Source: a virus. Taken from it: a DNA stretch of 64,000 nucleotides. The DNA is taken from IMG/VR virus record IMGVR_UViG_3300020020_000025. The stretch is one strand, 5' to 3'. How positions within the stretch are numbered: the first letter of the stretch is position 1; each line of letters starts with the position of its first letter. The notes below the pieces were generated by a model, which was not told the origin of the DNA, did not search any database, and saw only the letters and a program-made list of their open reading frames with translations. This document shows positions 1-19,199 of this stretch, one piece after another. Both the position numbers and the translations under genes were made by a program.

Positions 1-108
1 GGTAGAACTGATATAAACTGCTTGGAAATTAGTCCTCAAACTGGAGGAAATGTAAACTATCGAGGGCAGGAACAGCATATGATCCTCTCTACAAAATGGA
101 GAGGATAA
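1..108 (+). CDS. 3' end of tail fibre gene (complete copy at 45051-46502)
   Basis: Identical to 46395-46502; ends ...ILSTKWRG TAA immediately before the GTG at 109. Confidence 0.85.
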   Translation, partial: GRTDINCLEISPQTGGNVNYRGQEQHMILSTKWRG

Positions 109-1569
109 GTGGCTATAATCATTCCGCATACTACTAGAGCTGCAGGAACTGTGCTGACAGCATCGATCTACAATGCTGACCATGTTAATCATGTTACTAA
201 TGCCAACAGTCTTAATACGGCTAAGCTAGAATCTCCCATTGGAACGTCGCAGATCAGCGATGATAGTATTACAAACTCCAAGCTGGCCAATATGGTGGCT
301 CAGGCCATCAAGATGCGGAACAACGCCGCTGCTGGCGATCCGCAAGATCAGATACATAGCGATGTCACCACTGCAACTCCAGTATCAGGTGATCTTGCTC
401 TCGGTTGGACTGCAGCGGGTCTGTTAAGGAAGTTCGATGTCGTTAACTTTGGCGGCGCAACCGTCCCTCGCCGAGTTATCATTGGTGCTGATACTGTAGG
501 TATTGGCGATAAGGGAGGTATCATTGAGATAACCAGTGGAGGTCCCTTTACACTGGCCTTCACTGCTGCAGCTACGCTGGCCAATAACTTCACTGTGATG
601 CTCCTTAATTCGAGTGACACTGATATTACACTTGATCCCAATGGAGCCGAGCTGATAGACGGCTTGACGAGTTGGGTGCTATATCCAGGAGGAGCCGTCT
701 TTGTACATGGCAACGGCACAGCCTTTGAGAGTCTAATGCTCAACGGCATGAGGAAGCAGTTTGATGCCAGTGGTACTTGGACGAAGCCCGGAGTTGGGAA
801 GTACATTATTGTGGAGTGCTGGGGCGGAGGAGGATCGGGCGCCCGTGCTCAGAATGGTGAAGGAGGAGGTGGAGGAGGCGGAGGTGCCTATAACCGCCGG
901 TGGCTTCCGTTCTCAGCCTTAGGGGCTACCGAGACTGTGACTGTCGGGACGGGAGGAGCCTCTCGGACAGTTGACAATACGGATGGAGCGCCTGGCGGCA
1001 ATACAACCTTCGGAGCCCATATAACTGGATTTGAAGGAGGTGGGGGTGGAGATCAGGCAGGTGGAAATGGAGGAGGCGGAGGTGGAGGGGGAGTAAGCGG
1101 AGCAGGAGCCACGGCTACAACTGATGTTGGAGCTAATGGAGGGTTTCCTAGGTATTGGGTGCCCGTTGCTGCTACTAATAGATTTGGAACAGGGGGAACA
1201 GCAGACGCTCCTGGAGAGGACAACCCTACAGGAGGTGGTGGAGGCGGTGGAGGCGAAACTGCTGTACAAGCTAGAAAAGGAGGAGATGCCTTCTGGGGAG
1301 GAGGTGGCGGGGGAGGCGCAGCGGGATCTGTAGCTACTCAAGGAACTGGAGGTTTATCAGTATATGGAGGAGCTGGTGGAGGCGGTGGAGCAGCGACTAC
1401 TGCAGCAGCTGCTGGGGGCACCTCACAGTTCGGTGGCAATGGTGGGGCAGGGGCCACGGGAGGCGCAAACGGCGTGGCTGGATCGGCTCCTGGTGGCGGC
1501 GGGGGCGGGTCTGAGAACTCCAATTCCGGCGCTGGAGGGGCAGGTCGGTGCATAGTTTACATGTGGTAG
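109..1569 (+). CDS. Glycine-rich tail fibre / receptor-binding protein
   Basis: N-terminal HTTRAAGTVLTASIYNADH shared with the upstream fibre; WTKP...IIVECWGGGGSG start of a Gly-rich domain; position in tail module. Confidence 0.75.
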   Translation: MAIIIPHTTRAAGTVLTASIYNADHVNHVTNANSLNTAKLESPIGTSQISDDSITNSKLANMVAQAIKMRNNAAAGDPQDQIHSDVTTATPVSGDLALGWTAAGLLRKFDVVNFGGATVPRRVIIGADTVGIGDKGGIIEITSGGPFTLAFTAAATLANNFTVMLLNSSDTDITLDPNGAELIDGLTSWVLYPGGAVFVHGNGTAFESLMLNGMRKQFDASGTWTKPGVGKYIIVECWGGGGSGARAQNGEGGGGGGGGAYNRRWLPFSALGATETVTVGTGGASRTVDNTDGAPGGNTTFGAHITGFEGGGGGDQAGGNGGGGGGGGVSGAGATATTDVGANGGFPRYWVPVAATNRFGTGGTADAPGEDNPTGGGGGGGGETAVQARKGGDAFWGGGGGGGAAGSVATQGTGGLSVYGGAGGGGGAATTAAAAGGTSQFGGNGGAGATGGANGVAGSAPGGGGGGSENSNSGAGGAGRCIVYMW

Positions 1570-3882: not shown

Positions 3883-5774
3883 TGGGTGGATATCTCCCAG
3901 AGCCCGATGAATGGATGCAGCCTCAGCGCGAGCCTGAGGCCATACTACCGCAGCCACAGCAGCCTATCTCCAGGCAGCAGCAGGTAGCGGCAGCTTATCA
4001 ACAGAGCCAACAGGAAATTCAGCAAGCTCAAAGTGTCGCTGCTACGCGTGAAGAGGACCTAAACGTAGCACAGTACATGACCAAGATGCTTGATCCTACG
4101 GTGCCTAAGGCGGCTCGTCAATTTCTGTTCCGTGAGTTGTCCACGAGGATGGGCGTCGATCCTAAGGGTGAGACCTCACAGAACTTTGGCAAGATGCTTC
4201 TAGGCCTCGAGCCTGAGGCCCTTGAACGGTTGAATAGGGGCTATGCCGACAGGATTAAGAATGCCACTCCGGGCCAGATTAAGCAGATGACCCAGGCCGT
4301 CCTTCAAGGCGATGTATCGGGCATCGAGTTGATGAAGATGGCTAATGTACGAGTTGCCCAAGCTGGAGGTGGTGGTACTCCAGGTGTAATCCCGGCACAA
4401 CCGACGGCTCCTATCTCAGGCCCCCCTGGCGCACTTCCTCCCGCGCCAGGGACTACCCCTCCTGCGGCTGACCCTGCGGCGGCTGCAGGAGGGCCTCCCT
4501 CACCGTCAACGCGGCGGTATAAGGGCCAAGGTGAGACTATTCCGTTTCATCAACCTGTTGAGCCAGGCTTAGTTCGAGCCCTTGGTTATCAATTCGGCGA
4601 CCCTGTAAGGGTAAGTGATCTAGCGAAAGAGGGTATTACTGTTCCTCAAACACCCAAGGAACAGAACGATCTAATGAAGGCTATGGATGCCAATGCGTCA
4701 GCCACAGTCACAGTAGTAAAAGATGCAACTAGGTTACATCAGTTATTTAAGGGAAAGCCTGAAGTTCTTGGTCTTGTTGGAGCAACTGCAAGGACTGTGG
4801 ATCAAGCCATTGATCAAATGAAGGGTGTAATCCGCTCGGCAGGGGGTGATACATCCACCTTTGATCAGAATGATAAGGGATTTAGAGCCCTGATTGCACG
4901 TTCGGCTCAACGTGTATCAGATGTATACAAGAGTTCTGGAATTGAGCAGACTGCTGTTGACAGCGCAAGGCTGCAGGGAGCTGTTCTAGATATGGCCTAT
5001 TCAATGGCCAATGCTAAGGGAATCCCAGATAACCGCCTGACTAATAGAATGATCGCTCAGGAACTCAATACACTGGGGCAATCCCAATCGGTTGCTCAAT
5101 TTGAGGCAACTCTCAAGGAGGCGGTTGGCAGAGCACTTAGCAAATCTAGCAACGAAATAGCTGCTAGGGTTGGACGGCCTATGGACCCTAATCTAGGATT
5201 TGTCAATACACAAGACCTCGTCTTTATGGGCCAGAGTGATATTGCTTCCCCTGAACTGAAGAAGACTATCTTAGAAGAATCTAAGCGGCGTCTGTCGGGA
5301 GCTGCTGGTAAACCTATCAAGCGAGCAGAGCCCACTGTAGAAAGTGAGCAGCTATATACATCAGAGGAGGAGCGCCGGGAATCAGAGCGCAAGAAATCTG
5401 AGGAAAAGCGCCAACAAGAGGAACACGTATTAAAGAAGCGCCGGGATGTAAGAGCTGAAGAAGAGGGCGAGCGAGCTGAGGCTCGTATGGCCCGTACTGA
5501 GTTCGAGCAGAATCGCCGCTTCAACCTCGCCGAGAAGCGTGAGAGGCGCATGGAGGAACAGCACCGGCGCGACAAGATAGGAGCAGCCTTCAAGGAACTA
5601 GGTAAGATGATCGGAGAGGCTGGATCATCTGGTCGATCGATTGGAGCTGGAATTGGAGCTGGTGGAGGTGGAGGCGATCAGGATGCTGGAGCATTTAGGA
5701 TGACCCCAGCTCCTCGTAGGGCGCCGCCTAAACCAGTGGACGCCGAGCGGTATCAACGAAAGCCAGGTAAGTAG
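3882..5774 (+). CDS. Internal virion/ejection protein
   Basis: Likely start ATG 3882 (TAATG overlap); Q/A/P-rich, C-terminal coiled coil; in ejection cluster. Confidence 0.6.
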   Translation: MGGYLPEPDEWMQPQREPEAILPQPQQPISRQQQVAAAYQQSQQEIQQAQSVAATREEDLNVAQYMTKMLDPTVPKAARQFLFRELSTRMGVDPKGETSQNFGKMLLGLEPEALERLNRGYADRIKNATPGQIKQMTQAVLQGDVSGIELMKMANVRVAQAGGGGTPGVIPAQPTAPISGPPGALPPAPGTTPPAADPAAAAGGPPSPSTRRYKGQGETIPFHQPVEPGLVRALGYQFGDPVRVSDLAKEGITVPQTPKEQNDLMKAMDANASATVTVVKDATRLHQLFKGKPEVLGLVGATARTVDQAIDQMKGVIRSAGGDTSTFDQNDKGFRALIARSAQRVSDVYKSSGIEQTAVDSARLQGAVLDMAYSMANAKGIPDNRLTNRMIAQELNTLGQSQSVAQFEATLKEAVGRALSKSSNEIAARVGRPMDPNLGFVNTQDLVFMGQSDIASPELKKTILEESKRRLSGAAGKPIKRAEPTVESEQLYTSEEERRESERKKSEEKRQQEEHVLKKRRDVRAEEEGERAEARMARTEFEQNRRFNLAEKRERRMEEQHRRDKIGAAFKELGKMIGEAGSSGRSIGAGIGAGGGGGDQDAGAFRMTPAPRRAPPKPVDAERYQRKPGK

Positions 5775-8323
5775 TGGCAGATGATTTTGCCCTTGACGAT
5801 ATTGAGCCTCCAGGTACCACTGCGGAGGATGAGCTTAATCGCGTCCGCGAAGAAGCTATTCGCTTGGCAGCCAAAGCCGCTCAAGAATTAGCAGATGATC
5901 CTTCAGGTCCTCGCAGAAAACAGGCTGAGATCAGACCAACTCCTGAGAAGCGGGCAATTGTAGCTCCTTGGGGCATTCCTAAGGGCTCAACAGAACTCGA
6001 GCCGATGGTCCCTGAGATACTGCATGATCCATGGAACTTGTTCAATGAGATGGTTGATCTATTCTCGAAGGGTCATCGCGCTAGCGATCGGGAAGTTGTC
6101 GAGCGTTCGACCAAGCTGGCCGCCAATCTAGTTGGTGGTGGCATGGTCATGGAGACTGCTCAGCAGGCAGCAAAGAAAGGAGTTGTAAAGGCTGTTCAGG
6201 AAGTTGGTCACGGAGATATAAAATCTGCTTACAACCCTTATGACTTATCAAACTGGCCTGAAAGCAGTATTCATACACTAGATCATGGTTTCCTTAAAGA
6301 GATATCTGACATGGGTATGGCAATCAAGCATAATGAGGACCAAACTTGGACCGTAATTGGAAAGGGAGCTAAGACTGGCAATCCTCAAAAGGCTGAAAAG
6401 CTAGATTTTGACAATGAAGATGATTTGCTAGAACATCTAATTAAACTAAGGGAGGAGAAGGGCCAGGAGATGAAATCCTGGCACAAGGTACATAGCGAGC
6501 CCTATTTGCCTCCTAGCGAAGCTGTGAAGAAGGTAATGGACTCAGAATATGGCATTGGCATGTATGGACATGGTAAGGAGTGGCATGTCTGGGGTTGGGA
6601 ACCTCAGCCCAACGAGAAATACGCTAAATACATAGCTAAAGAATTTACTAATAAAGATGAGGCTACCAAGTTCTATGAGGAGATAAAGAAGAGTACTGAG
6701 CTAGCCAATGCTGAGAAAAAATTCTCCCACGAAGCCAAGAGAGAGGTCGAGACCTTTGGCAAGATGCTTAAGACTGAAAAGAAAATCTTAGAGGATGATA
6801 AATTTGGTCAATTAGCTTCAATTGGAATAGATAAAGAAACTTATGACGGTGTAAAGGCACTTGGCCTTGATATAGCCGTTTATGAGAATGGCGAATTTAG
6901 CTTGGTTGGAAAAGGAGCGATAGATGGATCATCTGCTTGGCAGTCGATGGTATTTGATGATACTGCCAAGCTTATAGATCATCTGACCAATGTTCAGCAC
7001 CTCAAAGATGGTCTTATAACTCAAGAAGAGCTTGTGAATAAGACTACAGGCGCTTCAGGAGGTCCCAGCCCTAAGGCCGTCTTTGGTTCTGGAGAGTTTG
7101 GTAAAAATGTCTATGGTAAATCTGCAGACGCTCCAGCTAGCAGCTACCAGCCAAAAGCCCTCTGGAAGGATGATAGCGCTGTTGAAGTTTATGGAACTAT
7201 GGAAGAAGCCATAGCTGCAGCTGGAAAGGGAGGTAAAGCTGATCCGCTAGCCCAGGGAGGTTATGCTGCTTACCAAGCGGATTATAAGGGATATGTCACA
7301 AAGGGCCAAGGTCCTGCCCCTGTAGCTCCAGTCGAGAAAAAGAAGATTTGGACCTATACTGAGATGGACGATAGATGGCCCTCCCTGGATAAGGTAATGC
7401 ACGTTACAGTTGATACAGGGAAGAAAAATCCTCATAGTATGACTCTTAAGGAACTACTTACCAAGATGGGTAAGCAGGGAGAGGAGATTGCTGACGTTAT
7501 AGACATGGCAGTCGGTGCTGGTATATCCAAGATCGAGGTGGGCGACATAAAGATGAATATAAATTTCTTTGAAAGCCACGATAAGCCGCTCCCTCCAGGG
7601 ATCTCATATCCTGGCTATATTAAGTCGGAGAAATTGCCAAGTGAAACGCAGATGCGTCTTTGGCCAAATGCCAAGGATATAGATACATTAGGAAATACGG
7701 ACAAGCATCCTGAAGGAGGACTCCTCGCTTATCATGGAACCAAAGTCGATAAGATATTCGAGAAAGGACAATTCGATCTAGCGCATTCTAATGATATAGG
7801 TCATCACTTTGGAACAAAGGAACAAGCAGGATCAATAATTGTAGGCGACAATCTTTGGAGTGACTCACTACCAAGAAGGATCATTCCTGTTCACATAGCT
7901 GTGAAGAATCCTCTTACATTACCAGATATGGGTGGTTGGCGGCCCTGGGATTTCCCTAGAGAACTTGCTGAAGTATTACCAGGCTATACCGAGAAAATGG
8001 AAAATAATCTATCTGCTAGATTAAATAAGGTCTCAGAGGTCTCAGAGGGAGATATAGGACGAAAGCAGTTTGATATCATTCGAGCGGAGATAGAGAAATT
8101 CGGCTATGACTCTATTCGCTATCTCAACTCAGTAGAGGGAGAGGGATGGTCCTACATCGTATGGCAGAAAAATAGAGTTCGGTCGGCTTCTAATCCTGAG
8201 CATATACTGTATGTCAGGACAGGACCAGGCGTACCGAACAGATATCAAGAGGAAGACGAGGATGGGCGGAATACCAATAGACGAGACCCTGATCTCTCAG
8301 CCGCAGCCCCAAGAAGTCCTTGA
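5774..8323 (+). CDS. Multidomain (polyvalent-type) virion protein with C-terminal ADP-ribosyltransferase-like domain
   Basis: YHGT...GHHFGTKEQA...PVHIAVKNP...GYDSIRYLNSVEG...SYIV; internal repeats; stop-start coupled within the ejection cluster. Confidence 0.6.
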   Translation: MADDFALDDIEPPGTTAEDELNRVREEAIRLAAKAAQELADDPSGPRRKQAEIRPTPEKRAIVAPWGIPKGSTELEPMVPEILHDPWNLFNEMVDLFSKGHRASDREVVERSTKLAANLVGGGMVMETAQQAAKKGVVKAVQEVGHGDIKSAYNPYDLSNWPESSIHTLDHGFLKEISDMGMAIKHNEDQTWTVIGKGAKTGNPQKAEKLDFDNEDDLLEHLIKLREEKGQEMKSWHKVHSEPYLPPSEAVKKVMDSEYGIGMYGHGKEWHVWGWEPQPNEKYAKYIAKEFTNKDEATKFYEEIKKSTELANAEKKFSHEAKREVETFGKMLKTEKKILEDDKFGQLASIGIDKETYDGVKALGLDIAVYENGEFSLVGKGAIDGSSAWQSMVFDDTAKLIDHLTNVQHLKDGLITQEELVNKTTGASGGPSPKAVFGSGEFGKNVYGKSADAPASSYQPKALWKDDSAVEVYGTMEEAIAAAGKGGKADPLAQGGYAAYQADYKGYVTKGQGPAPVAPVEKKKIWTYTEMDDRWPSLDKVMHVTVDTGKKNPHSMTLKELLTKMGKQGEEIADVIDMAVGAGISKIEVGDIKMNINFFESHDKPLPPGISYPGYIKSEKLPSETQMRLWPNAKDIDTLGNTDKHPEGGLLAYHGTKVDKIFEKGQFDLAHSNDIGHHFGTKEQAGSIIVGDNLWSDSLPRRIIPVHIAVKNPLTLPDMGGWRPWDFPRELAEVLPGYTEKMENNLSARLNKVSEVSEGDIGRKQFDIIRAEIEKFGYDSIRYLNSVEGEGWSYIVWQKNRVRSASNPEHILYVRTGPGVPNRYQEEDEDGRNTNRRDPDLSAAAPRSP

Positions 8324-10413: not shown

Positions 10414-11607
10414 ATGGTAATGCGTCGAGTTCAAGCTGGCACTATTCAACAGCGCAAACGAGAGGCGCTGCAGGAGTTCTATAAAAAGCAGGCCGATGAT
10501 ATAGAGGCATATAAGAAAAGTAGGGATTCCAGCACTCAGGCCGAGATATACAGGGAGCACGGTGATCCTGATTTCCGAGTTGGTAAGTGGAGCCAGCCGC
10601 GTCTAAAAGATGTGCTGCCCCAGCGGGAAGAAAAGGAAAACGTAGACAGGTATCCTCGATATGAAGGAGGTGTCCAAGGTATATCTTCCCGCTCCGATGA
10701 TCTTCCTGACTTTAAGGGACCTCGTCCCGAGGGTTACTGGGGCAAAGATAAGTCATGGAGCCAACTAAGCGATCACCAGAAGGCCGCTGCAATGGCCTTG
10801 CTGGAGGCCGGTCTTGACAAGAATGGGAGACCCGATATCGTAGCTGCCAAGAACGCCCTGGGCGCTATGATTAACCGTGCAGACAAAGAGGGCCAGGAGC
10901 TAGGACGCCATGTCAGCGGTAAGATATATCAGCCTACTATTGAGCCTGATCAGTATGCCCGGTTGCAGCATCTTACAAGACTGCCCGCCTTTCGAGACCT
11001 CACCGACATCGCGGAGCAGCGTGCGACCGGCCAAGTAGAGGACTGGGTAGGCGGGGCTACCCATTTTCTAGCTCATCCAAAGGAGATGCTTGCCCTTGAG
11101 GCCAAGGATCCAGCGAAGTATAAGAACTGGGGGCCTCGAGGCAAGAACTGGACGGGCTATGATGAGGCTACAGGGAGATACAAGAATGAGGTCCTGTCGG
11201 ACAGCAGCCACGTCTTCCTGGCTCCTGAGGGTAAGCATAGTGCTTTTGCTGGGCAGCCTTCTGCTTTTGACTATGGTACAACCGCCGAGCTATCCCAGCC
11301 AGATCGCCTCCAGGTTCCATTTCCTGAAGAGCAGCCCTCACCTGCTCCTGCGCCTCAAGTTCCCGAGCTGCCCAAGCTGTCCGAGTTTCTGGCTCAACAA
11401 CAGAGACAAATGCCCCAAGCCCAGCCCAACGATCTGATGGACATTCAATCTAAACCTATCAGTCTGCCAGGGCTTGGAGATGAGCTTCCTGGTCAGGATG
11501 ATAGAGCGTTTGCCATTCTGCCTTCTCAGCAGCGTCGGAGGCCAGGCGGGGGCGCTCCGACGCTACCAGTGCCGCGTAGACCTCCGGGATTTCTTCCGGA
11601 GTTTTAA
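10414..11607 (+). CDS. Virion-associated cell-wall hydrolase (SleB/Hydrolase_2-like)
   Basis: ALLEAG...ALGAMINR...YQP...DWVGGATHF...HVF motif order; last gene of late operon. Confidence 0.55.
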   Translation: MVMRRVQAGTIQQRKREALQEFYKKQADDIEAYKKSRDSSTQAEIYREHGDPDFRVGKWSQPRLKDVLPQREEKENVDRYPRYEGGVQGISSRSDDLPDFKGPRPEGYWGKDKSWSQLSDHQKAAAMALLEAGLDKNGRPDIVAAKNALGAMINRADKEGQELGRHVSGKIYQPTIEPDQYARLQHLTRLPAFRDLTDIAEQRATGQVEDWVGGATHFLAHPKEMLALEAKDPAKYKNWGPRGKNWTGYDEATGRYKNEVLSDSSHVFLAPEGKHSAFAGQPSAFDYGTTAELSQPDRLQVPFPEEQPSPAPAPQVPELPKLSEFLAQQQRQMPQAQPNDLMDIQSKPISLPGLGDELPGQDDRAFAILPSQQRRRPGGGAPTLPVPRRPPGFLPEF

Positions 11608-12427
11608 CGGAGTGCATGTCACCCCATGAGATGCCAACCTTGATATCCACGTTTAGGCGAAAGGTATGTCCACCGTAGTTAAGTTCGGGCCTCATATATT
11701 CTACCATTTGGTGGCAGAAGTGAGTGAGGTCCCCCCAATTGTCAGTGGGATAGAGGGCCATAAGCGAGTCATGGACTTGCGCCCCAAGGTTCATTCGCTG
11801 GAAGGGCTCGGAGGTGTCCTCAAAAGCGGCACACATGGCCTCCAGAACTATGTCCACCACGGTAGATTGCGGTACGAAGGAGTAGGCCTTGTCGAACAAG
11901 TCCGAGCCCCATTCCCCAAGGAGTCTAACCTTGCGGCCGAAGCAGTTGGTAAGCGTGCGGTCGTTTTCCTTCATCGTTTGTCGAGTGGCTTCCCACCACT
12001 TTGGGATGCCAGGATAGGCAACTTCAGTGTAAGCCGCTACAATAGGGGCCGCCTCACTCTCCATGATTTCCCACTCAAGAGCAGCTCGCCTATATTTCAT
12101 GCCATAGTTGAGCCCGTGGTTAGACTTCTTGCCCGACTGACGAATGGACATCGATCGAGGAAGGAAGATTGCATCTTTCTCATGCAATTCAATCAGCTCG
12201 GGCAACTTTTCCCTTCGCAGTTGAGCGATCAGGCCGGGGTCGGTGGCGTTTCCGAGTAGCTTGTGATCGGCTATTACTAGAGGCTCGGGAACGTCTGTGA
12301 TGAGGGCCCCCGTCACTATGTGCGGACTCTTCCCGCTTTCCACCACTTCTATCATGTTCGGGTCGTTCGCTAGATAAGCTACCACTACCCACTCTGCCCC
12401 GGCCAGATCGAACTCTACCAGTATCAT
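11459..12427 (-). CDS. polA: DNA polymerase family A, C-terminal catalytic half (motifs A, B, C)
   Basis: Motif A EFDLAGAEW at the N-terminus; motif B KKSNHGLNYG; motif C QVHDSL; AAGGGG RBS. Confidence 0.9.
   Translation of the reverse strand: MILVEFDLAGAEWVVVAYLANDPNMIEVVESGKSPHIVTGALITDVPEPLVIADHKLLGNATDPGLIAQLRREKLPELIELHEKDAIFLPRSMSIRQSGKKSNHGLNYGMKYRRAALEWEIMESEAAPIVAAYTEVAYPGIPKWWEATRQTMKENDRTLTNCFGRKVRLLGEWGSDLFDKAYSFVPQSTVVDIVLEAMCAAFEDTSEPFQRMNLGAQVHDSLMALYPTDNWGDLTHFCHQMVEYMRPELNYGGHTFRLNVDIKVGISWGDMHSVKTPEEIPEVYAALVASERPRLASDAAEKAEWQTLYHPDQEAHLQALAD
11582..11605 (+). terminator. Intrinsic terminator at end of late operon
   Basis: CTCCGGGA-TTTC-TTCCGGAG then TTTT, overlapping the last codons of 10414-11607. 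Confidence 0.6.
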
Positions 12428-12686
12428 TACAGCCCCTTAGTCTATTGGCCACCAGTTTGGCATATCCCGCTATATCATCCCAGTTGTCAACGTGATCCTG
12501 ACTGCCCGTGGTGATGCGAGATATCTTACTAGCTACCTGGTCCAGGCCCTCCTTCATGTCCTCCGACAGACAATGATATCCGGGAGTACTCCGAATGAGG
12601 AACTTGAGGCCCTGAGCTACAGTGGCATTATCGATAAAGGGGCCGTAGACTTGGCCCCTTTGCTCCAGCAGCTTATCGGTTTCCAT
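12189..12686 (-). CDS. DUF6378-like phage protein with out-of-frame tail overlapping the Pol C-half
   Basis: EQRGQVYG...KISRI...HVDNWDDIAGYA; conserved part ends near 12430. Confidence 0.6.
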   Translation of the reverse strand: METDKLLEQRGQVYGPFIDNATVAQGLKFLIRSTPGYHCLSEDMKEGLDQVASKISRITTGSQDHVDNWDDIAGYAKLVANRLRGCNDTGRVRSGRGRVGSGSLSSERPEHDRSGGKREESAHSDGGPHHRRSRASSNSRSQATRKRHRPRPDRSTAKGKVARAD

Positions 12687-13587
12687 TGGCGTTCTCCACG
12701 TCCAACAGCATTTTTTCTACTGTCTCAGCGTCGAAGGTTCCCGAGGGCTCACCGATGGCTACCCGTTGATAAATCTCAAGAGCTACCAAAGTCTTAGGTC
12801 CAAGGTGACCGTCAACTACCAGGCCAGGCCGATGTCCCAGTAGATTAAGAGTAGCCTGGCCCCAGCGAACCCACTCGTAAGTCCCTGGCTTGACTGCTCC
12901 AATTAGCCCACCTACCCACTGATCTGCCAGTTCCTCATAGGTGCCTCTAAAGGAGTTGACATCGAGATTACTGTCATCCACTCCCTTAATTTTTGGGGCA
13001 TCAGGTCCATGCTGGCCATCAGTGAACTGCCACAGCCAGTAACTGTCCCAGCTAGCCTGAGTATGAGGCTGAGGTCCGTACTGAGCGTGCCACAATCTGC
13101 ATGTGCCAAGATACTGGTCAACTTGGTTGCCCAACTGATCCTTGATAAGATGGCCCGAGTATAGCACGGGCAGCCTACCAGTTTTGGCCTCGAGCAGCTT
13201 AATGAATTGGATAGCATCAGCTGCACTGCATCGCTCGTCCTCATGATCGAGAGCCAGCAATGTACCAGGCTCAGGATCAGCATGTCTCAGGAAATGCTCG
13301 ACTTGGGCCGTAATATCCCCTGGCCTGAAGAAATGATAGGCGCCCCACAACAGGCCTACACTCTTTGCTAGGCTTCGGCGGGATGCATACGTAGGATCGA
13401 CGTAGCTAGAACCTTCAGTGGCCTTGTGGATAATGCCTCTAATACCGCTATAATATATGTCCTGAAAGGACGTTACTGTATTATGGTGGCTCAGATCGAG
13501 CACCATCGGGTTAAGCTTCTCGCCCTTAGGCTGAGCAGGTTCTTTGGTCTTAGATTTGGTCGTGGGCATGTCTACTTTTCCTCTCAT
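12673..13587 (-). CDS. Endolysin: GH25 muramidase plus C-terminal peptidoglycan-binding domain
   Basis: VLDLSHHN, HKATEG, GAYHFF, LDHE (DxE), WQFTD; C-terminal VDGHLGPKT PG-binding motif. Confidence 0.88.
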   Translation of the reverse strand: MRGKVDMPTTKSKTKEPAQPKGEKLNPMVLDLSHHNTVTSFQDIYYSGIRGIIHKATEGSSYVDPTYASRRSLAKSVGLLWGAYHFFRPGDITAQVEHFLRHADPEPGTLLALDHEDERCSAADAIQFIKLLEAKTGRLPVLYSGHLIKDQLGNQVDQYLGTCRLWHAQYGPQPHTQASWDSYWLWQFTDGQHGPDAPKIKGVDDSNLDVNSFRGTYEELADQWVGGLIGAVKPGTYEWVRWGQATLNLLGHRPGLVVDGHLGPKTLVALEIYQRVAIGEPSGTFDAETVEKMLLDVENANGNR

Positions 13588-13717
13588 CCCGTAGATAAGT
13601 CATCAGTTTCCGTCTCTGTCTGTACGTCTTCTCGTAGTTCTTCTCCTGGTTCTTGTACTTTGGCCTCCTTAACTTCGCCAGTAGGCGATCTCGCTCCGTT
13701 CGTATGCGCTTGGGCAT
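13550..13717 (-). CDS. Possible 55-aa basic protein overlapping the acidic tail of the Pol N-half
   Basis: AGAAGGA RBS then ATG CCC AAG; K/R-rich. Confidence 0.35.
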   Translation of the reverse strand: MPKRIRTERDRLLAKLRRPKYKNQEKNYEKTYRQRRKLMTYLRDERKSRHAHDQI

Positions 13718-15362
13718 CTTTCCTTCTCGCCACAATAAAGCCTTTGAACTGAGGATGAAGGTTCTGCAGGTTCATTCCCTTATTGAAGATCGTCTGTGAC
13801 GATGACAGTCGTCCTGTCCATGTTCCTCGAGGATTCCAGCTACATCGAAGCATCATGTCGGGATCAAGCTCGACCTCGAGATATGTCCCTTTGAGCTTTC
13901 GGAGAGATCGAACTTCCTGTGTTAGCTTGGCCTCCTTGGCCCCAGGCCCGCCCTTGCGGACGATCCGAGACATGGCTTTGTCATCAGTGGTGATACCGCC
14001 TCTTGCCTTAGTGTAGGCCTTAAGGCCCAGTGTCTCATAGAAGTACTTGGCGCACTGGGCAGGCGACGAGACGTTGAAATCCCATTCAGCGGCTTCCCGG
14101 AGTTCAGCCTCCTTAGCAGCCAATTCCTGTTCGATTTGGGCCTTCGTAGCCCCGAGGCCTTCCAGATCCACTTCTAGACCACGAGCCGACATATACGTAA
14201 GCGGGCCGGCCAATCTGACGGTTCTGTTGTAAGTGGGCCAATAGCCTCCAGCTGTCATTTCCTCCGATAATACGTCCCACGCTTCTAGCGCTACACATGC
14301 GTCTCGGCCACAGTATCGCTGAAACTGCTCCCACTCGATGTTGGGGTTCTTCCATATCTTGCCATCATCCTTCCAGTAAGGCTCCCGTGTATGCACGCTC
14401 GCGATAAAGTCCAGACCTTTCCTAAAATCAGGATACAGGACGTGCTGGGCAATCATAGGATCGCCAAGTTTGCCCTTCGTGTGGATATGATTCTTGTTAA
14501 ACAGGTATGGTGCATCAAAGCCCACCAGGTTCTGGTTGATCTTCTCGATCTCAGGATCACTCATCAAGGCCGCATAGTTCTGCCATACCCTAATCTCATC
14601 ATCTTCTTCCCAATAGGGCACCGTGCCTGGCCACTGCATATCCCCCACGAGGGGAACAGTCATGGCCTCTTCTTTGTCGCACGAGAGACTAAAGCAGCTA
14701 ATCTGCTCATTAACGACTTCAAGATCAGTCGCTACGCGACCGACCTCTCGGCACTTATGGATATACTGGTAGAAATCGTAGTATGTTGGCCTGACATGCA
14801 GAGTCCGCTTTGGCAACAGCAGTTCGGGACTATCCAGTTCGCCCTGGATCTTCTTCATGTCCCCTATTATCATGTAGCGCCACAAATAGACGCCGTGGAT
14901 TGTTGCTGCTGGATGGATAGTCGGAATGTACTTTTTCTTGACTCGATCGCTCCATAAGGGGCTGCCTCGCCACTTCATGATGGGCTTCTTGTGATCGTCC
15001 ATCAGCAGTTCCATAGCCTGAGTCCCCATGCTCAAGATGGCATTGCACTTCGAGGCCATGATCCGACGTAATGTAGGAACAGCGGCATCCAGGCCATATG
15101 CAGTAAAACCCTTGCTCACTGTCCATACCTGTTCTCCGTCCATAGAGAAATTTCCGGCCTTGTCCTTATCTATGGGCTTAGGCCAGATGTTGAGAATATA
15201 GCAATTGCGCCGTATAAGGCCAGCAGCGTGGAGACAGTCCATAAAAACGTCCCCACTAGGACCAACCAGCGGCCTACCAAGCCGCATCTCGACTCTTGCG
15301 GGAGCCTCCGCCAGGACCAAAAGGGGCGCATTGGGATCGCCTTCTTCAGAAGGAGTTGCCAT
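13584..15362 (-). CDS. polA: DNA polymerase family A, N-terminal half: UDG family 4-like domain, 3'-5' exonuclease, thumb and TGRLSS motif
   Basis: AEAP...GRPLVGPSG...HPAA; ExoI TDLEV, ExoII NLVGFD, ExoIII YCGRDA; TGRLSSS...NLQNL...FIVA. Confidence 0.9.
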   Translation of the reverse strand: MATPSEEGDPNAPLLVLAEAPARVEMRLGRPLVGPSGDVFMDCLHAAGLIRRNCYILNIWPKPIDKDKAGNFSMDGEQVWTVSKGFTAYGLDAAVPTLRRIMASKCNAILSMGTQAMELLMDDHKKPIMKWRGSPLWSDRVKKKYIPTIHPAATIHGVYLWRYMIIGDMKKIQGELDSPELLLPKRTLHVRPTYYDFYQYIHKCREVGRVATDLEVVNEQISCFSLSCDKEEAMTVPLVGDMQWPGTVPYWEEDDEIRVWQNYAALMSDPEIEKINQNLVGFDAPYLFNKNHIHTKGKLGDPMIAQHVLYPDFRKGLDFIASVHTREPYWKDDGKIWKNPNIEWEQFQRYCGRDACVALEAWDVLSEEMTAGGYWPTYNRTVRLAGPLTYMSARGLEVDLEGLGATKAQIEQELAAKEAELREAAEWDFNVSSPAQCAKYFYETLGLKAYTKARGGITTDDKAMSRIVRKGGPGAKEAKLTQEVRSLRKLKGTYLEVELDPDMMLRCSWNPRGTWTGRLSSSQTIFNKGMNLQNLHPQFKGFIVARRKDAQAHTNGARSPTGEVKEAKVQEPGEELREDVQTETETDDLSTG

Positions 15363-15882
15363 CTTCGATTTCCTTTAGAAGGATAGCTATATCTCCAGCT
15401 CCCAACTTGTCCAGAGGAGAGTTAGGTTTTAATATATACTTACCTCGCGAAGATAATGGAATACCATTCGATTGATCTTCTCTAACTTCTTCCATCGATT
15501 CCTCTACAATATTAGCTTTTCCATCATCCCTAAAACCTCGGCTTATCTCGGCTAGATAATATTCATACAAGGGCAAGGTGCCTCGAACGTTGCCATATCT
15601 GTCAGCTAATACTACCATAAAACTATAACCAAAGTCAAGCTCGTCAAGGCGGACATGCAAATTCATATATGCCTCTAATTTCTCGACGCTAAGAGGACTA
15701 GTATCCTCTATCTCAAACACTAGAATATTACCATGCTCATGATCTACATAGTATCCATCTGGAAGATAAGATCCAAACAGATGCTCCATTAAAAGATTTC
15801 CTAGAGTTTTGCGAAAGTTCTTTCTTTCAAGTTTTGGAAACTTGATTTTTAGAGCTTCAAAAGCTCTGGCTTCTAACCTCAC
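15346..15882 (-). CDS. PD-(D/E)XK-like nuclease, AT-rich insertion
   Basis: LPDGYYVD...LVFEIED; four 60-nt lines hand-counted at 32-38% GC versus 62% in an adjacent line. Confidence 0.5.
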   Translation of the reverse strand: MRLEARAFEALKIKFPKLERKNFRKTLGNLLMEHLFGSYLPDGYYVDHEHGNILVFEIEDTSPLSVEKLEAYMNLHVRLDELDFGYSFMVVLADRYGNVRGTLPLYEYYLAEISRGFRDDGKANIVEESMEEVREDQSNGIPLSSRGKYILKPNSPLDKLGAGDIAILLKEIEDGNSF

Positions 15883-16079
15883 TTCTTTTGTCCTCCTTGT
15901 CTGATGCAGCGGATGAGCTCTATGGAGAGCTCGTTTGGAACTTTCTTGGCCATATCCTTCAGCTGGAGCGAAGTCTCCTGACAGGTCCGCATGTCCCTAA
16001 AGTGAATGAGTATGGTCTTCTGCCATATCATCACTGGGACGCCGAACTTCACGACGATATATAGAGTCACAAAGTCCAT
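15879..16079 (-). CDS. Hypothetical protein
   Basis: Start reassigned to ATG 16079 (TAATG overlap); coupled to downstream gene. Confidence 0.55.
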   Translation of the reverse strand: MDFVTLYIVVKFGVPVMIWQKTILIHFRDMRTCQETSLQLKDMAKKVPNELSIELIRCIRQGGQKK

Positions 16080-16342
16080 TACTCTGCGGTCCTTAAGGTG
16101 TGCGACATAGCGCCCATCTTGCATCGGGTGCAGAAGCGCTCGCCGCCGTTCTCTATCTCCCGCCAGCCCTCCCAATTGTGTTCGCAGGGACCCTCTGGAC
16201 AGGCGCAGTAACAGGCATTCCAATCGAAGTTGTGATGGAGAACGCCCTTGATGTTCATTTTCTTGGCAACCTCTTCCAGTTCTTCACGAACCTTGATGTT
16301 GCGTTCCTTGCGAAGGGCTTCAAAGTCAGGTTTTCCGGCCAT
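16079..16342 (-). CDS. Small Cys-rich (Zn-binding) protein
   Basis: CYCAC..GPCEH and CTRC; AAGGAG RBS. Confidence 0.65.
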   Translation of the reverse strand: MAGKPDFEALRKERNIKVREELEEVAKKMNIKGVLHHNFDWNACYCACPEGPCEHNWEGWREIENGGERFCTRCKMGAMSHTLRTAE

Positions 16343-17627
16343 ACTCTTTCTCCTTGTCTTCCGTTATGCGCTTGAGGAAACTCTCCTTATGATCGTCCGA
16401 GAGGTCCCAGCCTATACCTGTGTGTTGGAGGCGATAGGCTGCCCGCAATGTCACCCCTGAGCCCAAGAAGGGGATTAGGATATGACTGCCGGGATCGAGG
16501 CACAGATTGAGTATCTCCTCCATAAGGACCAAGGGCTTCTCAGTGGGATGATCCTTCTTGGCCAGTGCTGGATAGTTGAAGACGTTGCCTCGTCCCTGTC
16601 GAGGTAGTTTGGGCTGGCCCTTGCGGGCCAAGAAGAATGGTTCATAAGCTGAGCCCAAGGTCGTCTCAGGAGCCGCTGTCTGACCTCCCATTTCGCCCTT
16701 GACCCAGACAGCCGGTATATCAGGCACGCCGAAGCCTACGTCACGCAAGGTTGTAAGAACCATGTGGTGCCAAGACATGCCGTACCAGAACACCGCAAAG
16801 GCGTTAGGTCGAAGACGATCGTAGACAAGAGTGCATAACTGCCTAAAAGCGACTGGGAAACCCTTGTTATCCCACTCGAAATACTGGTCCATTGGACTTC
16901 CATCGGTGTTCCTCGATTTGCGCTTATCTAGATCAACGCCATAAGGAGGATCAACCTCAGCGAAGTGAAAGAGATCACCTTTCATCTGGGTCATCTCTTG
17001 CATGGCATCACCTATTAGATAATGATCGCTGGCATAGTCGACAGCCCGCTTGATATGGTCAGGCACTAGATCTCGTGCCCGCTTTAGAGCAACCTTTTCC
17101 TCCAGCTTCTTTACGTCCTTCCATGCAGCATCTTCCGTTTCCATTTCCTCAAGGGCAAGTTCAGGAGCCTCCTCCATTGTCTTAGCAATTTCAAGGGCCC
17201 TATGAGTATTGCTCTTATCTCTCCCTACAAGAAGAGCATGTTTCTCCTTTGTCCATCCCTTGGGATTGGTCGTAGGTTCCCATTCCCCATATTGAGCTAT
17301 CTTCAGGTTCCATATCTTCAATTCTAGTTTAGCTCTTTCGTGCCATTCAAGATCTTTCCGAGCTACATTTTCAATCAACTCAATTTCAAGGCTATTCGCT
17401 TCGCCATTTATTGGACGTACTATAGCCTTAATAGTGTCTAGCCCAAGCAGTCGATGAGCGAGATACCGACGTTCACCGGCCACCAACTTAAGATCAGTAT
17501 CTAGCGTAATAGGTTGAATAAGGCCATGCTGCTTGATGGCTATTGCTAGACCTTCGATATCTCCCTTATCCTCGCGTGCTCGGTCTTTGACCTTTATTTG
17601 GTCAAGCCTGATCTCCTGTACCTGCAT
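16326..17627 (-). CDS. ParB-N domain / DNA methyltransferase (N6-A or N4-C, beta class) fusion
   Basis: GLIQPI...LVAGERR, ENVARKDL; DPPY motif IV; HPTEKP; PFLGSG motif I. Confidence 0.85.
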   Translation of the reverse strand: MQVQEIRLDQIKVKDRAREDKGDIEGLAIAIKQHGLIQPITLDTDLKLVAGERRYLAHRLLGLDTIKAIVRPINGEANSLEIELIENVARKDLEWHERAKLELKIWNLKIAQYGEWEPTTNPKGWTKEKHALLVGRDKSNTHRALEIAKTMEEAPELALEEMETEDAAWKDVKKLEEKVALKRARDLVPDHIKRAVDYASDHYLIGDAMQEMTQMKGDLFHFAEVDPPYGVDLDKRKSRNTDGSPMDQYFEWDNKGFPVAFRQLCTLVYDRLRPNAFAVFWYGMSWHHMVLTTLRDVGFGVPDIPAVWVKGEMGGQTAAPETTLGSAYEPFFLARKGQPKLPRQGRGNVFNYPALAKKDHPTEKPLVLMEEILNLCLDPGSHILIPFLGSGVTLRAAYRLQHTGIGWDLSDDHKESFLKRITEDKEKEYGRKT

Positions 17628-17874
17628 CGTCTCCCTCCAGCTCCCGTAGTAACGCTTCCATCTGTTCAGGCGTCATTTTGTCCAAGGCCTTCTTGGCTTT
17701 AGTCTTAGATGTATCTCCTCGTTTTATCCTTATCTTGGCCTCCTTTCTAGGACCCACCTTAGATATCCTGCGGTCAGCGCGTATCTGCCTTACGTGCTCC
17801 CGGAGCTCATCCAGGGTCATATCCTCGATGCTTTTACGAAGCCTATCCAGATGGCTCATTTTGCCTACTTTCAT
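17602..17874 (-). CDS. Small basic helical protein
   Basis: Overlaps ParB-MTase start; alternative start at 17859. Confidence 0.6.
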   Translation of the reverse strand: MKVGKMSHLDRLRKSIEDMTLDELREHVRQIRADRRISKVGPRKEAKIRIKRGDTSKTKAKKALDKMTPEQMEALLRELEGDDAGTGDQA

Positions 17875-17919
17875 GGGATTAAGAGGCCCCGTGTAATTTA
17901 CACGTAACCTCTTAATCCC
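17875..17919. promoter_or_regulatory. 45-bp imperfect palindrome (putative operator) overlapping a leftward sigma70-like promoter
   Basis: GGGATTAAGAGG-CCC-CGTGTAA-T-TTACACG-TAA-CCTCTTAATCCC; minus strand TTGACG(17924-17919)-18-TAAATT(17900-17895). Confidence 0.6.
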
Positions 17920-17924
17920 GTCAA

Positions 17925-18323
17925 TTAGCTCTTCAACCTTGGCAACTTCAGACGATTGTAGACGTTACCATCATCGCCCTCTTCCTGTCCCACAAAGCAT
18001 CGACCTGTCGCGCCCAGTAGATCGTCGGTGTTGAAGCCGCTGCCCTCGTGAGGGATGCCGAAGCATATCAGGAAACGCTTGATCTCCAGCAAGCGCATCT
18101 GGACCTGATCTTGAGGCGTGTTCTTGTCAGGATAGGTGATCCAGTGCCGAACGAGGGCTGCATTGGGCACCGCCGAGTCCTCGATCTTGATGTAGATCGT
18201 AGTCATTGGATTGCCCTTTTTGGACTCTCCATCCTCAGACTTAACGATCCTAAGATCATACTCGCCTTCAGGTGCGGCTTCTGGTTCCTTGGCATCGCCC
18301 AAGGCTGCTTGTACGAAAGGCAT
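17925..18323 (-). CDS. Single-stranded DNA-binding protein (DUF669-like OB fold)
   Basis: PEGEYDLRIV...SKKGNPM...F...DL.G...V..E...YN; adjacent to the Sak4-like ATPase. Confidence 0.65.
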   Translation of the reverse strand: MPFVQAALGDAKEPEAAPEGEYDLRIVKSEDGESKKGNPMTTIYIKIEDSAVPNAALVRHWITYPDKNTPQDQVQMRLLEIKRFLICFGIPHEGSGFNTDDLLGATGRCFVGQEEGDDGNVYNRLKLPRLKS

Positions 18324-18335
18324 TCTTGTTACTCC

Positions 18336-19199
18336 TTATTGTGCTTGCATTCTGTCGAATGCAGAAACCTTGGAGACCGAGCTTGGTCGTGTTCGAGGGT
18401 CTAGGAGTGCTCCTATTCCACCTTTTGCTAGGTCTCCAAAGCCAGTGATAGTTACATCCTCGATGGTTCGAAGCCCCTGGATGCTCGAACGAACATCCTG
18501 AAGCCCTCGAGGATCAGGTCTGGTTCTTACTTCATACTTTACCTGTCCTTTTTCGCCTTCACCTGTCTGAGCCAGCCAGACGTTGGTGAATAGAAGAGGG
18601 AGATATGACCTGGCTTTCCCCGGTAACATGATCTGCGTCTCCACCTTCTTCGTATGCTCGTCTTGGAAAGTGGATAAGTGGCAGGTTGCATAGAGGTTGA
18701 TCTGGAGCCCCGACAAGGAATTGAAAAGGTCTGTGAGCTTAGAACCGACCACCCTGTAGTCCCCAAGCTCTTCGATGTCCCCATAGCGGTTATTGATGTA
18801 GAGTTGGCGATCCATAGTGGCCTTGGTAAGAAAGGTAAGGCTATCCAGACATAGCCACTGATAATCCTTGAAGAATCCCTTTTCGACCTTCGCATTAAGA
18901 TCTTCAATCCAGTTCATATAGACATGAGGCTCTAACTTCTTCGTGCGGCCAGGCATAACATCAGACTTCGAGCCTTTGTTGAAGCCCTTAAGTGTGGCAT
19001 CCATCTCAAGGAAATCAGGGTAGAATTCCTCGTAGTCAACATCACATCCTTTCAGGGTCGATAGGGAGTTGGGATCGAAGATGTAGGCAAAGCGCTTGCC
19101 CGGCAGGGTCCATATCTGAGCACTCTTTCCAGTGCCAGTCCGCCCCGCAACAAGAATACGATGAAAGGGCTTAAGGTCCGCATCTTTGGCATTAGGCAT
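18336..19199 (-). CDS. Sak4-like / AAA_24 ATPase (recombination)
   Basis: Walker A GRTGTGKS, Walker B LCLDSLT, ATCH, LPGKA. Confidence 0.75.
   Translation of the reverse strand: MPNAKDADLKPFHRILVAGRTGTGKSAQIWTLPGKRFAYIFDPNSLSTLKGCDVDYEEFYPDFLEMDATLKGFNKGSKSDVMPGRTKKLEPHVYMNWIEDLNAKVEKGFFKDYQWLCLDSLTFLTKATMDRQLYINNRYGDIEELGDYRVVGSKLTDLFNSLSGLQINLYATCHLSTFQDEHTKKVETQIMLPGKARSYLPLLFTNVWLAQTGEGEKGQVKYEVRTRPDPRGLQDVRSSIQGLRTIEDVTITGFGDLAKGGIGALLDPRTRPSSVSKVSAFDRMQAQ

What the first reader, a model, noticed from the sequence alone, without database searches (positions are those of the whole stretch)
11459..15362. Family A DNA polymerase split into two separate genes with the endolysin between them
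Seen: 15362-13584 encodes UDG-like domain, 3'-5' exonuclease, thumb and TGRLSSS...NLQNLHPQFKGFIVA, then an acidic tail. 12427-11459 starts MILVEFDLAGAEW (motif A) with its own RBS and holds motifs B and C. Established: in PolA only a few residues separate F.VA from the motif A strand, so essentially nothing is missing. The ~1.15 kb between the ORFs carries a GH25 endolysin and a DUF6378-like gene, all overlap-coupled (ATGA at 13584-13587), which argues for an evolved operon. No intein or group I intron hallmarks were seen. Inference: a two-subunit PolA whose palm sheet assembles in trans. I do not know a characterised example with this architecture.
Basis: partly seen in the sequence, partly recalled or inferred. 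Interest (0 to 1): 0.85.

Follow-up and report, generated by a model that had tools for sequence, protein, structure and literature searches.

The report
Two-gene phage DNA polymerase carrying endolysin
An uncultured soil phage, like more than a thousand metagenomic relatives, encodes its family A DNA polymerase as two separately translated proteins cut in a surface loop just before the catalytic motif A, and keeps its cell-lysis enzyme in the gap; the split is real and conserved, but the same cut is already visible in published phage genomes.

Summary
On the minus strand lie PolA-N (15362-13584: UDG-like, 3'-5' exonuclease, thumb, ending FKGFIVA), a GH25 endolysin, a weak DUF6378-like ORF, and PolA-C (12427-11459, starting at motif A). 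Anchored on KlenTaq, the cut falls in the turn before the motif A strand. Nothing is missing.

It is not damage, an intron or an intein:
- Three soil assemblies carry it unchanged.
- Rfam finds nothing.
- Catalytic residues are invariant in 115 N-halves and 120 C-halves.
- dN/dS is 0.05-0.17.
- A complex model scores 0.79 against 0.00 for the best control. It may only recall the single-chain fold.

In 50 IMG/VR loci this loop is either continuous or split, with gaps of 200-3433 nt. The cargo varies: GH25 or M15 endolysins in the closest relatives, ThyX, a subtilase or small ORFs elsewhere. No homing endonuclease was found.

Best reading: an old gene fission giving a two-subunit polymerase, whose gap became a cargo slot.

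Cultured OM43 phages MEP401/402 have the same cut, published but not analysed, and this scan reported the same cut on other DNA (e1-3424969, e1-3425720, e1-3412690). No such enzyme has been characterised biochemically.

The "acidic tail" looks like a by-product of an overlapping small gene.

The parts
13584..15362 (-). PolA-N subunit, 592 aa. It holds a UDG-like domain (about residues 1-171), the 3'-5' exonuclease (Exo I D213/E215, Exo II D283, Exo III Y350/D354), the thumb and the first palm strand. The conserved part ends at FKGFIVA (residue 545, nt 13728).
   Evidence: Pfam; PDB anchors; invariant columns; dN/dS 0.05-0.09.
13584..13727 (-). 47-residue C-terminal extension of PolA-N, plus its stop codon. 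It is probably an unselected read-through, not an assembly tail.
   Evidence: Only 2 of 115 N-halves have a tail this long. Against L005 the tail frame gives dN/dS 2.2.
13550..13717 (-). Small basic ORF of 55 aa (MPKRIRTERDRLL...) with a GAAGGAAAG ribosome-binding site. It overlaps the PolA-N tail in another frame and is the frame under selection there.
   Evidence: 68% aa identity and dN/dS 0.09 against L005. No Pfam hit.
12673..13569 (-). Endolysin with a GH25 muramidase domain and a PG_binding_1 domain. ATG 13569 is the conserved start. An upstream in-frame ATG at 13587 overlaps the PolA-N stop.
   Evidence: Pfam; alignment with L005; dN/dS about 0.16.
12189..12686 (-). DUF6378-like ORF of 165 aa. 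The domain-like part ends near nt 12437. The last ~79 codons overlap PolA-C out of frame.
   Evidence: Pfam (below cut-off); sequence. It is absent from the closest relative L005.
12433..12438 (-). AAGGGG Shine-Dalgarno-like site, 5 nt upstream of the PolA-C start codon.
   Evidence: Sequence. L005 has TAAGGGA at the same place.
11459..12427 (-). PolA-C subunit, 322 aa. It holds motif A (D7, E12), the fingers with motif B (R96, K100, H104, Y108) and motif C (H219, D220, S221). The last ~50 residues are poorly conserved and overlap the convergent gene.
   Evidence: Pfam; PDB anchors; invariant columns; dN/dS 0.12-0.17.

Best explanation
**What it is.** The phage's only family A DNA polymerase underwent a gene fission in the surface turn that links the FIVA palm strand to the motif A strand.

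**The two subunits.**
- PolA-N carries the UDG-like domain, the proofreading exonuclease, the thumb and the first palm strand.
- PolA-C carries motif A, the fingers with motif B, and motif C.
- Each is translated from its own start codon on one leftward replication-operon transcript.

**How they work together.** The two proteins are inferred to associate non-covalently, completing the palm beta-sheet in trans, and to act as a heterodimeric replicase. Assembly and activity are inferred, not shown.

**The gap.** The intergenic gap created by the fission has become a slot for exchangeable cargo that is co-expressed with the polymerase. In this phage and its closest relatives the cargo is the endolysin plus small genes. 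The origin of the cut and any benefit of the slot are also inferences.
For: **The split is real.**
- The ORFs and domains are as described.
- The cut maps to a loop, with no residues lost.
- Two independent soil-metagenome contigs hold the whole stretch with 0 differences and no joints, and a third holds all but its last 450 bases.

**It is widespread and precise.**
- 1266 stand-alone C-halves were found, and 284 N-half homologues at E<=1e-20; the 119 relatives listed are 511-594 aa. Many lie on 43-48 kb contigs.
- In the 120-row C-half alignment, which includes the window, 117 have 3-13 residues before the motif A Asp. In the 115-row N-half alignment, 104 end within 6 residues of FIVA.

**Both halves look functional.**
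- The exonuclease and polymerase catalytic residues are invariant.
- dN/dS is 0.05-0.09 for N and 0.12-0.17 for C.

**The halves are predicted to bind.** The complex model scores 0.79 against 0.00 for the best of 3 controls. In the tool's calibration that mark was reached by 58 of 80 solved complexes and 2 of 110 mismatched pairs. The interface includes N 540-546 and C 1-3 and 213-219.

**The gap is a cargo slot.**
- Relatives L002-L006 keep the order N, [small ORFs], GH25 or M15 endolysin, [small ORF], C.
- In 50 IMG/VR loci the gap is 200-3433 nt with varied cargo.
- The ORF just upstream of PolA-C often ends in an ATGA overlap with its start.
Against: - There are no protein, RNA or activity data.
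- The complex model may only recall single-chain PolA structures. The tool itself warns of this.
- In this genome the DUF6378-like ORF reads through the PolA-C start region, which is not a neat coupling design.
- Motif C is HDS rather than HDE, and motif B has His where Klenow has F762. The enzyme is therefore atypical, and its activity is assumed from conservation only.
Confidence: 0.85

Rival explanations
1. The intervening 1.3 kb is removed at the RNA or protein level, by a group I or II intron or by a split intein, so the cell makes a single-chain polymerase.
For: Group I introns and inteins do interrupt phage polymerase genes at conserved motifs. The MEP401 authors raised this possibility for their split.
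Against: - Rfam at E<=1 finds nothing in 11300-15500.
- The gap holds conserved genes under purifying selection. Their number and type vary between relatives, and the gap ranges from 200 to 3433 nt.
- N-halves end 1-6 residues after FIVA and C-halves start with Met plus 2-12 residues. That leaves no room for the N- and C-terminal pieces of a split intein, and no Cys/Ser/Thr nucleophile follows the break.
- PolA-C has its own ribosome-binding site and ATG, with a TAA stop four codons upstream in frame.
Confidence: 0.03
2. The polymerase gene is broken and decaying. The phage replicates with host enzymes, or the pieces have other, separate roles (for example PolA-N acting alone as a UDG/exonuclease).
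For: Some phage lineages lack a DNA polymerase (T7-like cyanophage clades C, S and T). Motif C here lacks the usual Glu.
Against: - All catalytic residues are invariant across 115 N-half and 120 C-half sequences that have diverged to about 50% identity.
- dN/dS is well below 1 in both halves.
- The two halves are always found together and in the same order.
- HDS is also present in unsplit relatives, including the Desulfofustis phage.
Confidence: 0.04
3. The cut was made by a homing-endonuclease-type mobile cassette that targeted the conserved motif A DNA. The present cargo is what remains after the endonuclease was lost. This is a statement about origin and is compatible with a two-subunit enzyme.
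For: - The tree needs at least 8 changes between split and unsplit states on well-supported branches, so the site is hit repeatedly.
- Insertions carrying predicted endonuclease ORFs are reported inside the polymerase gene of an N4-like phage.
- The same cut occurs in the very distant MEP401 polymerase.
Against: - No HNH, GIY-YIG or LAGLIDADG family scored E<=1e-3 among 104 gap ORFs.
- No direct repeats flank the gap.
- One locus (L050) shows a cut made by a frame change alone, with overlapping ORFs and no insert. This resembles the S-SBP1-type fission by frameshift.
Confidence: 0.25
4. Assembly artefact or chimeric contig.
For: The sequence is metagenomic, and the window is a concatemer-like repeat of a 46.4-kb unit.
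Against: The arrangement is the same in contigs from three samples and in dozens of independent contigs from other studies.
Confidence: 0.01

Closest known systems
MEP401/MEP402-type OM43 phages (Zobellviridae); PolA encoded by gp13 and gp15 with a small gp14 between (Microbiol Spectr 2023, PMC10580990)
   Same: The structural cut site is the same. MEP401 gp13 ends ...TGRLSSSSPNLQNF...LFLSRYGE, and gp15 starts MILNADAKALEW, which is motif A. Motif A has EW and motif C has HDS, as here. One or more ORFs sit in the gap. The authors report the split in most related metagenomic genomes.
   Different: - The polymerases are not detectably similar by BLAST (E 0.007 over 17 residues).
- MEP401 has no UDG-like domain, has Phe rather than His in motif B, and has a single 77-aa ORF in the gap, not an endolysin.
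- The paper did not map the site and suggested an intron. No biochemistry was done.
Exonuclease|polymerase gene fission in T7-like cyanophages (S-SBP1 / S-TIP37 group; Czernecki et al. 2023, PMC10201439) and 'DNA polymerase part I / part II' of LUZ24-like Pseudomonas phages (PMC3890496)
   Same: A family A phage polymerase is encoded by two genes and presumed to work as two interacting proteins. In LUZ24-like phages several small genes, including a putative holin, lie between the parts.
   Different: Those cuts fall at the boundary between the exonuclease and polymerase domains. Here the cut is inside the polymerase domain, between two adjacent palm strands, so the catalytic sheet itself is shared between two chains.
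Split family B phage polymerases (PhiKZ DNAP-N + DNAP-C, 1:1 complex solved by cryo-EM; bioRxiv 2026, PMC13648687)
   Same: This is experimental proof that a phage replicative polymerase can be a stable complex of two gene products.
   Different: It is a different polymerase family, with a different cut and different accessory proteins.
Unsplit UDG-PolA of Desulfofustis phage LS06-2018-MD01 (OP947158)
   Same: It is the only GenBank phage hit (33% identity to PolA-C). It has the same UDG-exonuclease-polymerase architecture, the same ParB-methylase gene upstream, and the same NH(S/G)LNY and HDS motifs.
   Different: It is a single 826-aa protein, and a DUF3987 primase-like gene follows it instead of the convergent structural genes.

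Membership tests
Family A DNA polymerase (PolA) | Motif A Asp and Glu (Klenow D705/E710) | tested here: met
   D7 and E12 of PolA-C align to KlenTaq LVALDYSQIELR. D7 is present in 120/120 and E12 in 119/120 relatives.
Family A DNA polymerase (PolA) | Motif B Arg/Lys/Tyr of the O-helix, with an aromatic or Leu residue at Klenow 762 | tested here: inconclusive
   R96, K100 and Y108 are invariant. The Klenow F762 position is His104 in all 120 sequences. This residue is not among the Phe/Tyr/Leu variants discussed in PMC10201439.
Family A DNA polymerase (PolA) | Motif C HD(E) | tested here: met
   H219 and D220 are conserved. The following Glu is Ser in all 120 sequences and also in the one unsplit relative read here, the Desulfofustis phage.
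Family A DNA polymerase (PolA) | 3'-5' exonuclease motifs Exo I, II and III | tested here: met
   D213, E215, D283, Y350 and D354 are invariant in 115 N-halves.
Family A DNA polymerase (PolA) | Polymerase domain on one polypeptide | tested here: not met
   There are two ORFs with separate starts and stops, 1297 nt apart.
UDG-fused PolA (N4-like / SPO1-like / SP15-like groups) | N-terminal family 4 UDG-like domain | tested here: met
   Pfam UDG scores 3.4e-12. PDB family 4 UDGs 1l9g and 1vk2 score about 1e-7. The HP of the HPAA motif is invariant. The Glu of (G)EAP is Glu in 83 of 115 and Gln in 26. Membership of a named subgroup was not established: N4 and SPO1 were not hit by tblastn at 1e-5.
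Group I/II intron-interrupted phage polymerase gene | Recognisable intron RNA fold between the exons | tested here: not met
   No Rfam match at E<=1 in 11300-15500.
Split-intein 'fractured gene' | An N-terminal intein piece after the break and a C-terminal intein piece before the second part, with nucleophiles at the junctions | tested here: not met
   The termini are too short in nearly all relatives. The window's own tail is not conserved. PolA-C starts directly at the motif A strand.
Homing-endonuclease 'genes in pieces' (Aeh1 nrdA/mobE type) | A free-standing endonuclease gene in the gap | tested here: not met
   No endonuclease family scored E<=1e-3 in 104 gap ORFs from 48 loci, nor in the window's gap genes.
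MEP401-type pre-motif-A split PolA | N part ends after the strand that follows NLQN, C part starts at the motif A strand, and ORF(s) lie between | tested here: met
   MEP401 gp13 and gp15 were translated directly and compared with the window. Common descent of the cut is not shown.

The most novel reading that the evidence does not exclude
The pre-motif-A loop of phage PolA is a general, repeatedly used fission point, and the split is exploited rather than merely tolerated. Placing the endolysin and other cargo between the two halves of an essential enzyme would tie their dose and timing to replication, and would protect them from deletion. Separating the catalytic C-subunit from the UDG/exonuclease/thumb N-subunit would allow subunit-level regulation or exchange. 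It would also remove a conserved DNA target for homing elements.
Probability: 0.12. Interest if true: 0.75.

Novelty: new variant of a known kind. Interest (0 to 1): 0.5.

Why it matters
If the two halves do form an active enzyme, the PolA palm, the best-studied polymerase active site, can be built from two polypeptides by strand completion. That is of interest for polymerase engineering (split or conditionally assembled polymerases) and for understanding how essential genes break apart.

The finding also marks a large clade of uncultured soil and water phages in which standard annotation calls the N-half "uracil-DNA glycosylase" and the C-half a partial polymerase.

Finally, it shows that the gap inside an essential gene can become a stable home for swappable accessory genes, here the endolysin.

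Tried and rejected
- **Near-identical DNA in GenBank phages:** none found.
- **tblastn of PolA-C against 50,697 phage genomes:** one hit only, so no cultured close relative exists.
- **Rfam at a permissive threshold:** nothing.
- **Direct repeats flanking the gap** (as an excision or att-site idea): only short chance-level matches, none at the two borders.
- **Promoter and terminator scan of 11000-18500:** counts are close to those of shuffled sequence (9 against 6.4, and 8 against 5.8). No internal promoter or terminator can be claimed.
- **A frameshift in the DUF6378-like ORF** that would end it at the TAATG overlap: rejected by reading all three frames. The other frames are closed just upstream.
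- **Literature searches** for an N4-like or "genes in pieces" precedent at this site gave only one loosely relevant preprint.
- **The genome search on the window's own genome:** no genome is held.
- **One failed call:** the alignment that included the frame-shifted L050 junction.
- **RNA evidence:** no RNA run holds the stretch.
Full report
**Anatomy**

The window is a 46,394-bp unit that starts again at 46,395. It is therefore a complete circular or concatemeric phage genome of about 52% G+C. It carries:
- an SU10-like portal and adaptor, a terminase, a D5-like primase-helicase and a ribonucleotide reductase;
- a Sak4-like annealing protein and an exonuclease.

The replication operon runs on the minus strand, upstream to downstream:
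- a ParB-methylase gene (16326-17627);
- small ORFs;
- PolA-N (15362-13584, 592 aa);
- a GH25 plus PG_binding_1 endolysin (13587 or 13569 to 12673);
- a 165-aa ORF with a weak DUF6378 match (12686-12189);
- PolA-C (12427-11459, 322 aa).

The structural genes converge on PolA-C from the other strand.

**Where the cut lies**

PolA-N residues 384-524 align to KlenTaq chain residues 143-287 and end at TGRLSSS. PolA-C residues 2-49 align to chain residues 313-360, starting at LLVALDYSQIELR.

The 21 residues that follow in PolA-N (IFNKGMNLQNLHPQFKGFIVA) correspond to Taq NLQNIP...RRAFIAE. The break therefore sits in the short turn between that strand and the motif A strand.

Unsplit relatives read FLIADPGFVMIEVD or FIVPDPDHFFIELD across the site. 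The single GenBank phage relative, Desulfofustis phage LS06-2018-MD01, reads YLTPDPGHIFYSFD. Nothing but a few loop residues differs. PolA-C has AAGGGG 5 nt before its ATG, and an in-frame TAA four codons upstream.

**The split is real and conserved**

- Contigs from two soil-metagenome samples hold the whole stretch with no differences, and a third holds all but its last 450 bases. No joined form was seen. These samples may include the source of the window.
- Independent support is much broader. 1266 stand-alone C-halves of about 280-380 aa were found, and 284 N-half homologues at E<=1e-20; the 119 relatives listed are 511-594 aa. Many lie on 43-48 kb contigs.
- Among representatives clustered at 50% identity, 58 of 150 start within a few residues of the motif A strand.
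- In the 120-row C-half alignment, which includes the window, 117 have 3-13 residues before the catalytic Asp. In the 115-row N-half alignment, 104 end within 6 residues of FIVA.
- Five relatives read in full (L002-L006, 62-85% identity on PolA-C; L004 50%) have the same order: N, small ORFs, endolysin, small ORF, C.

**Both halves look functional**

- Exo I, II and III residues, motif A Asp/Glu, motif B Arg/Lys/Tyr and motif C His/Asp are invariant or nearly so.
- Nei-Gojobori dN/dS against L005, L006 and L002 is 0.05-0.09 for N, 0.12-0.17 for C and about 0.16 for the endolysin. dS is near saturation for the more distant pairs.

**Not an intron, intein or excisable element**

- Rfam finds nothing at E<=1.
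- The termini are too short for the pieces of a split intein.
- No repeats flank the gap.
- No promoter or terminator signal exceeds chance.

**Predicted assembly**

PolA-N 180-546 and PolA-C 1-290 were folded together, each with its own alignment. The score was 0.79, against 0.00 for the best of 3 controls. In the tool's calibration that mark was reached by 58 of 80 solved complexes and 2 of 110 mismatched pairs.

The interface includes N 540-546 (FKGFIVA), C 1-3 and C 213-219 (the motif C strand). That is what completion of the palm sheet in trans predicts. The model may be recalling single-chain PolA structures, so this shows that the halves fit the fold, not that they bind.

**The gap is a cargo slot**

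In 50 IMG/VR loci the same loop shows three states:
- continuous in 11 loci, all at 45% identity or less to the query (10 with a 6-nt spacing, one, L058, with 48 nt);
- broken by a frame change with overlapping ORFs in one locus (L050, unverified);
- split, with a gap of 200-3433 nt.

Pfam on 104 gap ORFs gave these families:

| Pfam family | ORFs |
|---|---|
| Glyco_hydro_25 | 7 |
| Peptidase_M15_4 | 8 |
| PG_binding_1 | 12 |
| Thy1 (ThyX) | 3 |
| Subtilase | 1 |
| HTH_3 | 1 |
| DUF551 | 1 |
| Homing endonucleases | 0 |

Clustering of the gap ORFs shows:
- a family of small proteins of about 70-125 aa just downstream of the N-half in the query's clade;
- a family of acidic proteins of about 72 aa that exactly fill the minimal 200-240-nt gaps of a sister clade.

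The ORF upstream of PolA-C often ends in an ATGA overlap with its start. The endolysin is thus the common cargo of the closest relatives, and it changes type in place. It is not universal.

**History**

A quick maximum-likelihood tree of 123 representatives puts the query in a clade of 25 that are all split (SH-aLRT 91). A second all-split clade has 9 members. Elsewhere split and unsplit forms interleave, and the well-supported branches force at least 8 changes.

The tree is poorly resolved, and some stand-alone C-halves may be mis-called genes. Even so, one single origin for all split forms is unlikely. The site seems to break, or heal, repeatedly.

A second fission class of about 500 aa starts just before Exo III, with a DUF6378 gene directly upstream.

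**Comparison with what is known**

- Czernecki et al. 2023 describe the exonuclease|polymerase fission of S-SBP1-like phages as the first split seen in PolAs.
- LUZ24-like phages have the same kind of domain-boundary split, with a putative holin and other small genes between the parts.
- The OM43 phages MEP401 and MEP402 were reported to encode their polymerase in two ORFs with a small ORF between. An intron was suggested. I translated MEP401 gp13 and gp15. The cut is at the same structural site as here, although the proteins are too distant for BLAST to relate them.
- PhiKZ shows experimentally that a split family B phage polymerase forms a stable 1:1 complex.
- Earlier reports of this scan describe the same pre-motif-A cut on other DNA, with dUTPase, MazG-like or multi-ORF cargo. 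Those reports are leads, not evidence. Two of their pointers, MEP401 and Czernecki et al., were checked here.

- The 47-residue tail is shared only with the closest relative. In that comparison the tail frame has dN/dS 2.2, while an overlapping 55-aa basic ORF (13717-13550, with its own ribosome-binding site) has 0.09. The tail is best read as a by-product. This rests on one sequence pair and about 50 codons.
- The conserved endolysin start is ATG 13569, so the ATGA coupling to PolA-N is doubtful.
- The DUF6378-like ORF is absent from the closest relative and overruns the PolA-C start by 239 nt.

**Verdict**

This is a real, conserved, probably functional two-subunit family A polymerase with an endolysin-bearing cargo slot. 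It is a new variant (UDG-fused, with His at the Klenow F762 position, and carrying an endolysin) of a split architecture that is already visible in published genomes but has never been characterised biochemically.

Noticed in passing
window 13550-13717 (-): A 55-aa basic ORF (MPKRIRTERDRLL...) overlaps the PolA-N tail in another frame. Against L005 it has dN/dS 0.09, against 2.2 for the tail frame. It has no family match and gene callers did not call it.
   Followed up: partly
window 12189-12427 (-): The DUF6378-like ORF has no stop near the PolA-C start and runs 239 nt (~79 codons, rich in Arg/Ser/Gly) through PolA-C in another frame. The gene is absent from the 85%-identical relative L005.
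   Followed up: partly
window 11459-11607, both strands: PolA-C and the convergent 397-aa gene (10414-11607, +; its relatives carry an SLT domain) overlap by 149 nt at their 3' ends. A similar overlap of 98-158 nt is present in L002-L006.
   Followed up: partly
window 12116-12118 (His104 of PolA-C) and 11765-11767 (Ser221): The motif B position equivalent to Klenow F762 is His in all 120 C-halves, and the Glu of motif C HDE is Ser in all 120. The Desulfofustis phage polymerase shares both. His at this selectivity position is not among the Phe/Tyr/Leu variants discussed in PMC10201439.
   Followed up: partly
L008:1-1924 and representatives P0128, P0135 and others: There is a second fission class in the same polymerase family. 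Proteins of about 500 aa begin just before the Exo III motif and run unbroken through motif A, with a DUF6378 gene directly upstream (22 of 150 representatives).
   Followed up: partly
L050:5960-6010: One IMG/VR relative has the two polymerase parts in different frames, overlapping by a few codons at the same loop and with no insert. This could be a minimal fission, a sequencing error or a recoding site.
   Followed up: no
L028, L031, L032, L034, L038, L040-L042, L045 (about 5770-6011): A family of acidic helical ORFs of about 72 aa exactly fills the minimal 200-240-nt gaps between the polymerase halves in a sister clade. It has no family match.
   Followed up: partly
L047:4400-5992; L033, L051, L056 gaps: Other gaps carry a 530-aa subtilase (Peptidase_S8) or ThyX (Thy1) genes between the polymerase halves.
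   Followed up: no
window 1-300 and 46395-46694: The window repeats after 46,394 bp. The contig is a concatemer or a wrapped circular genome, so every feature beyond 46,394 is a second copy.
   Followed up: yes
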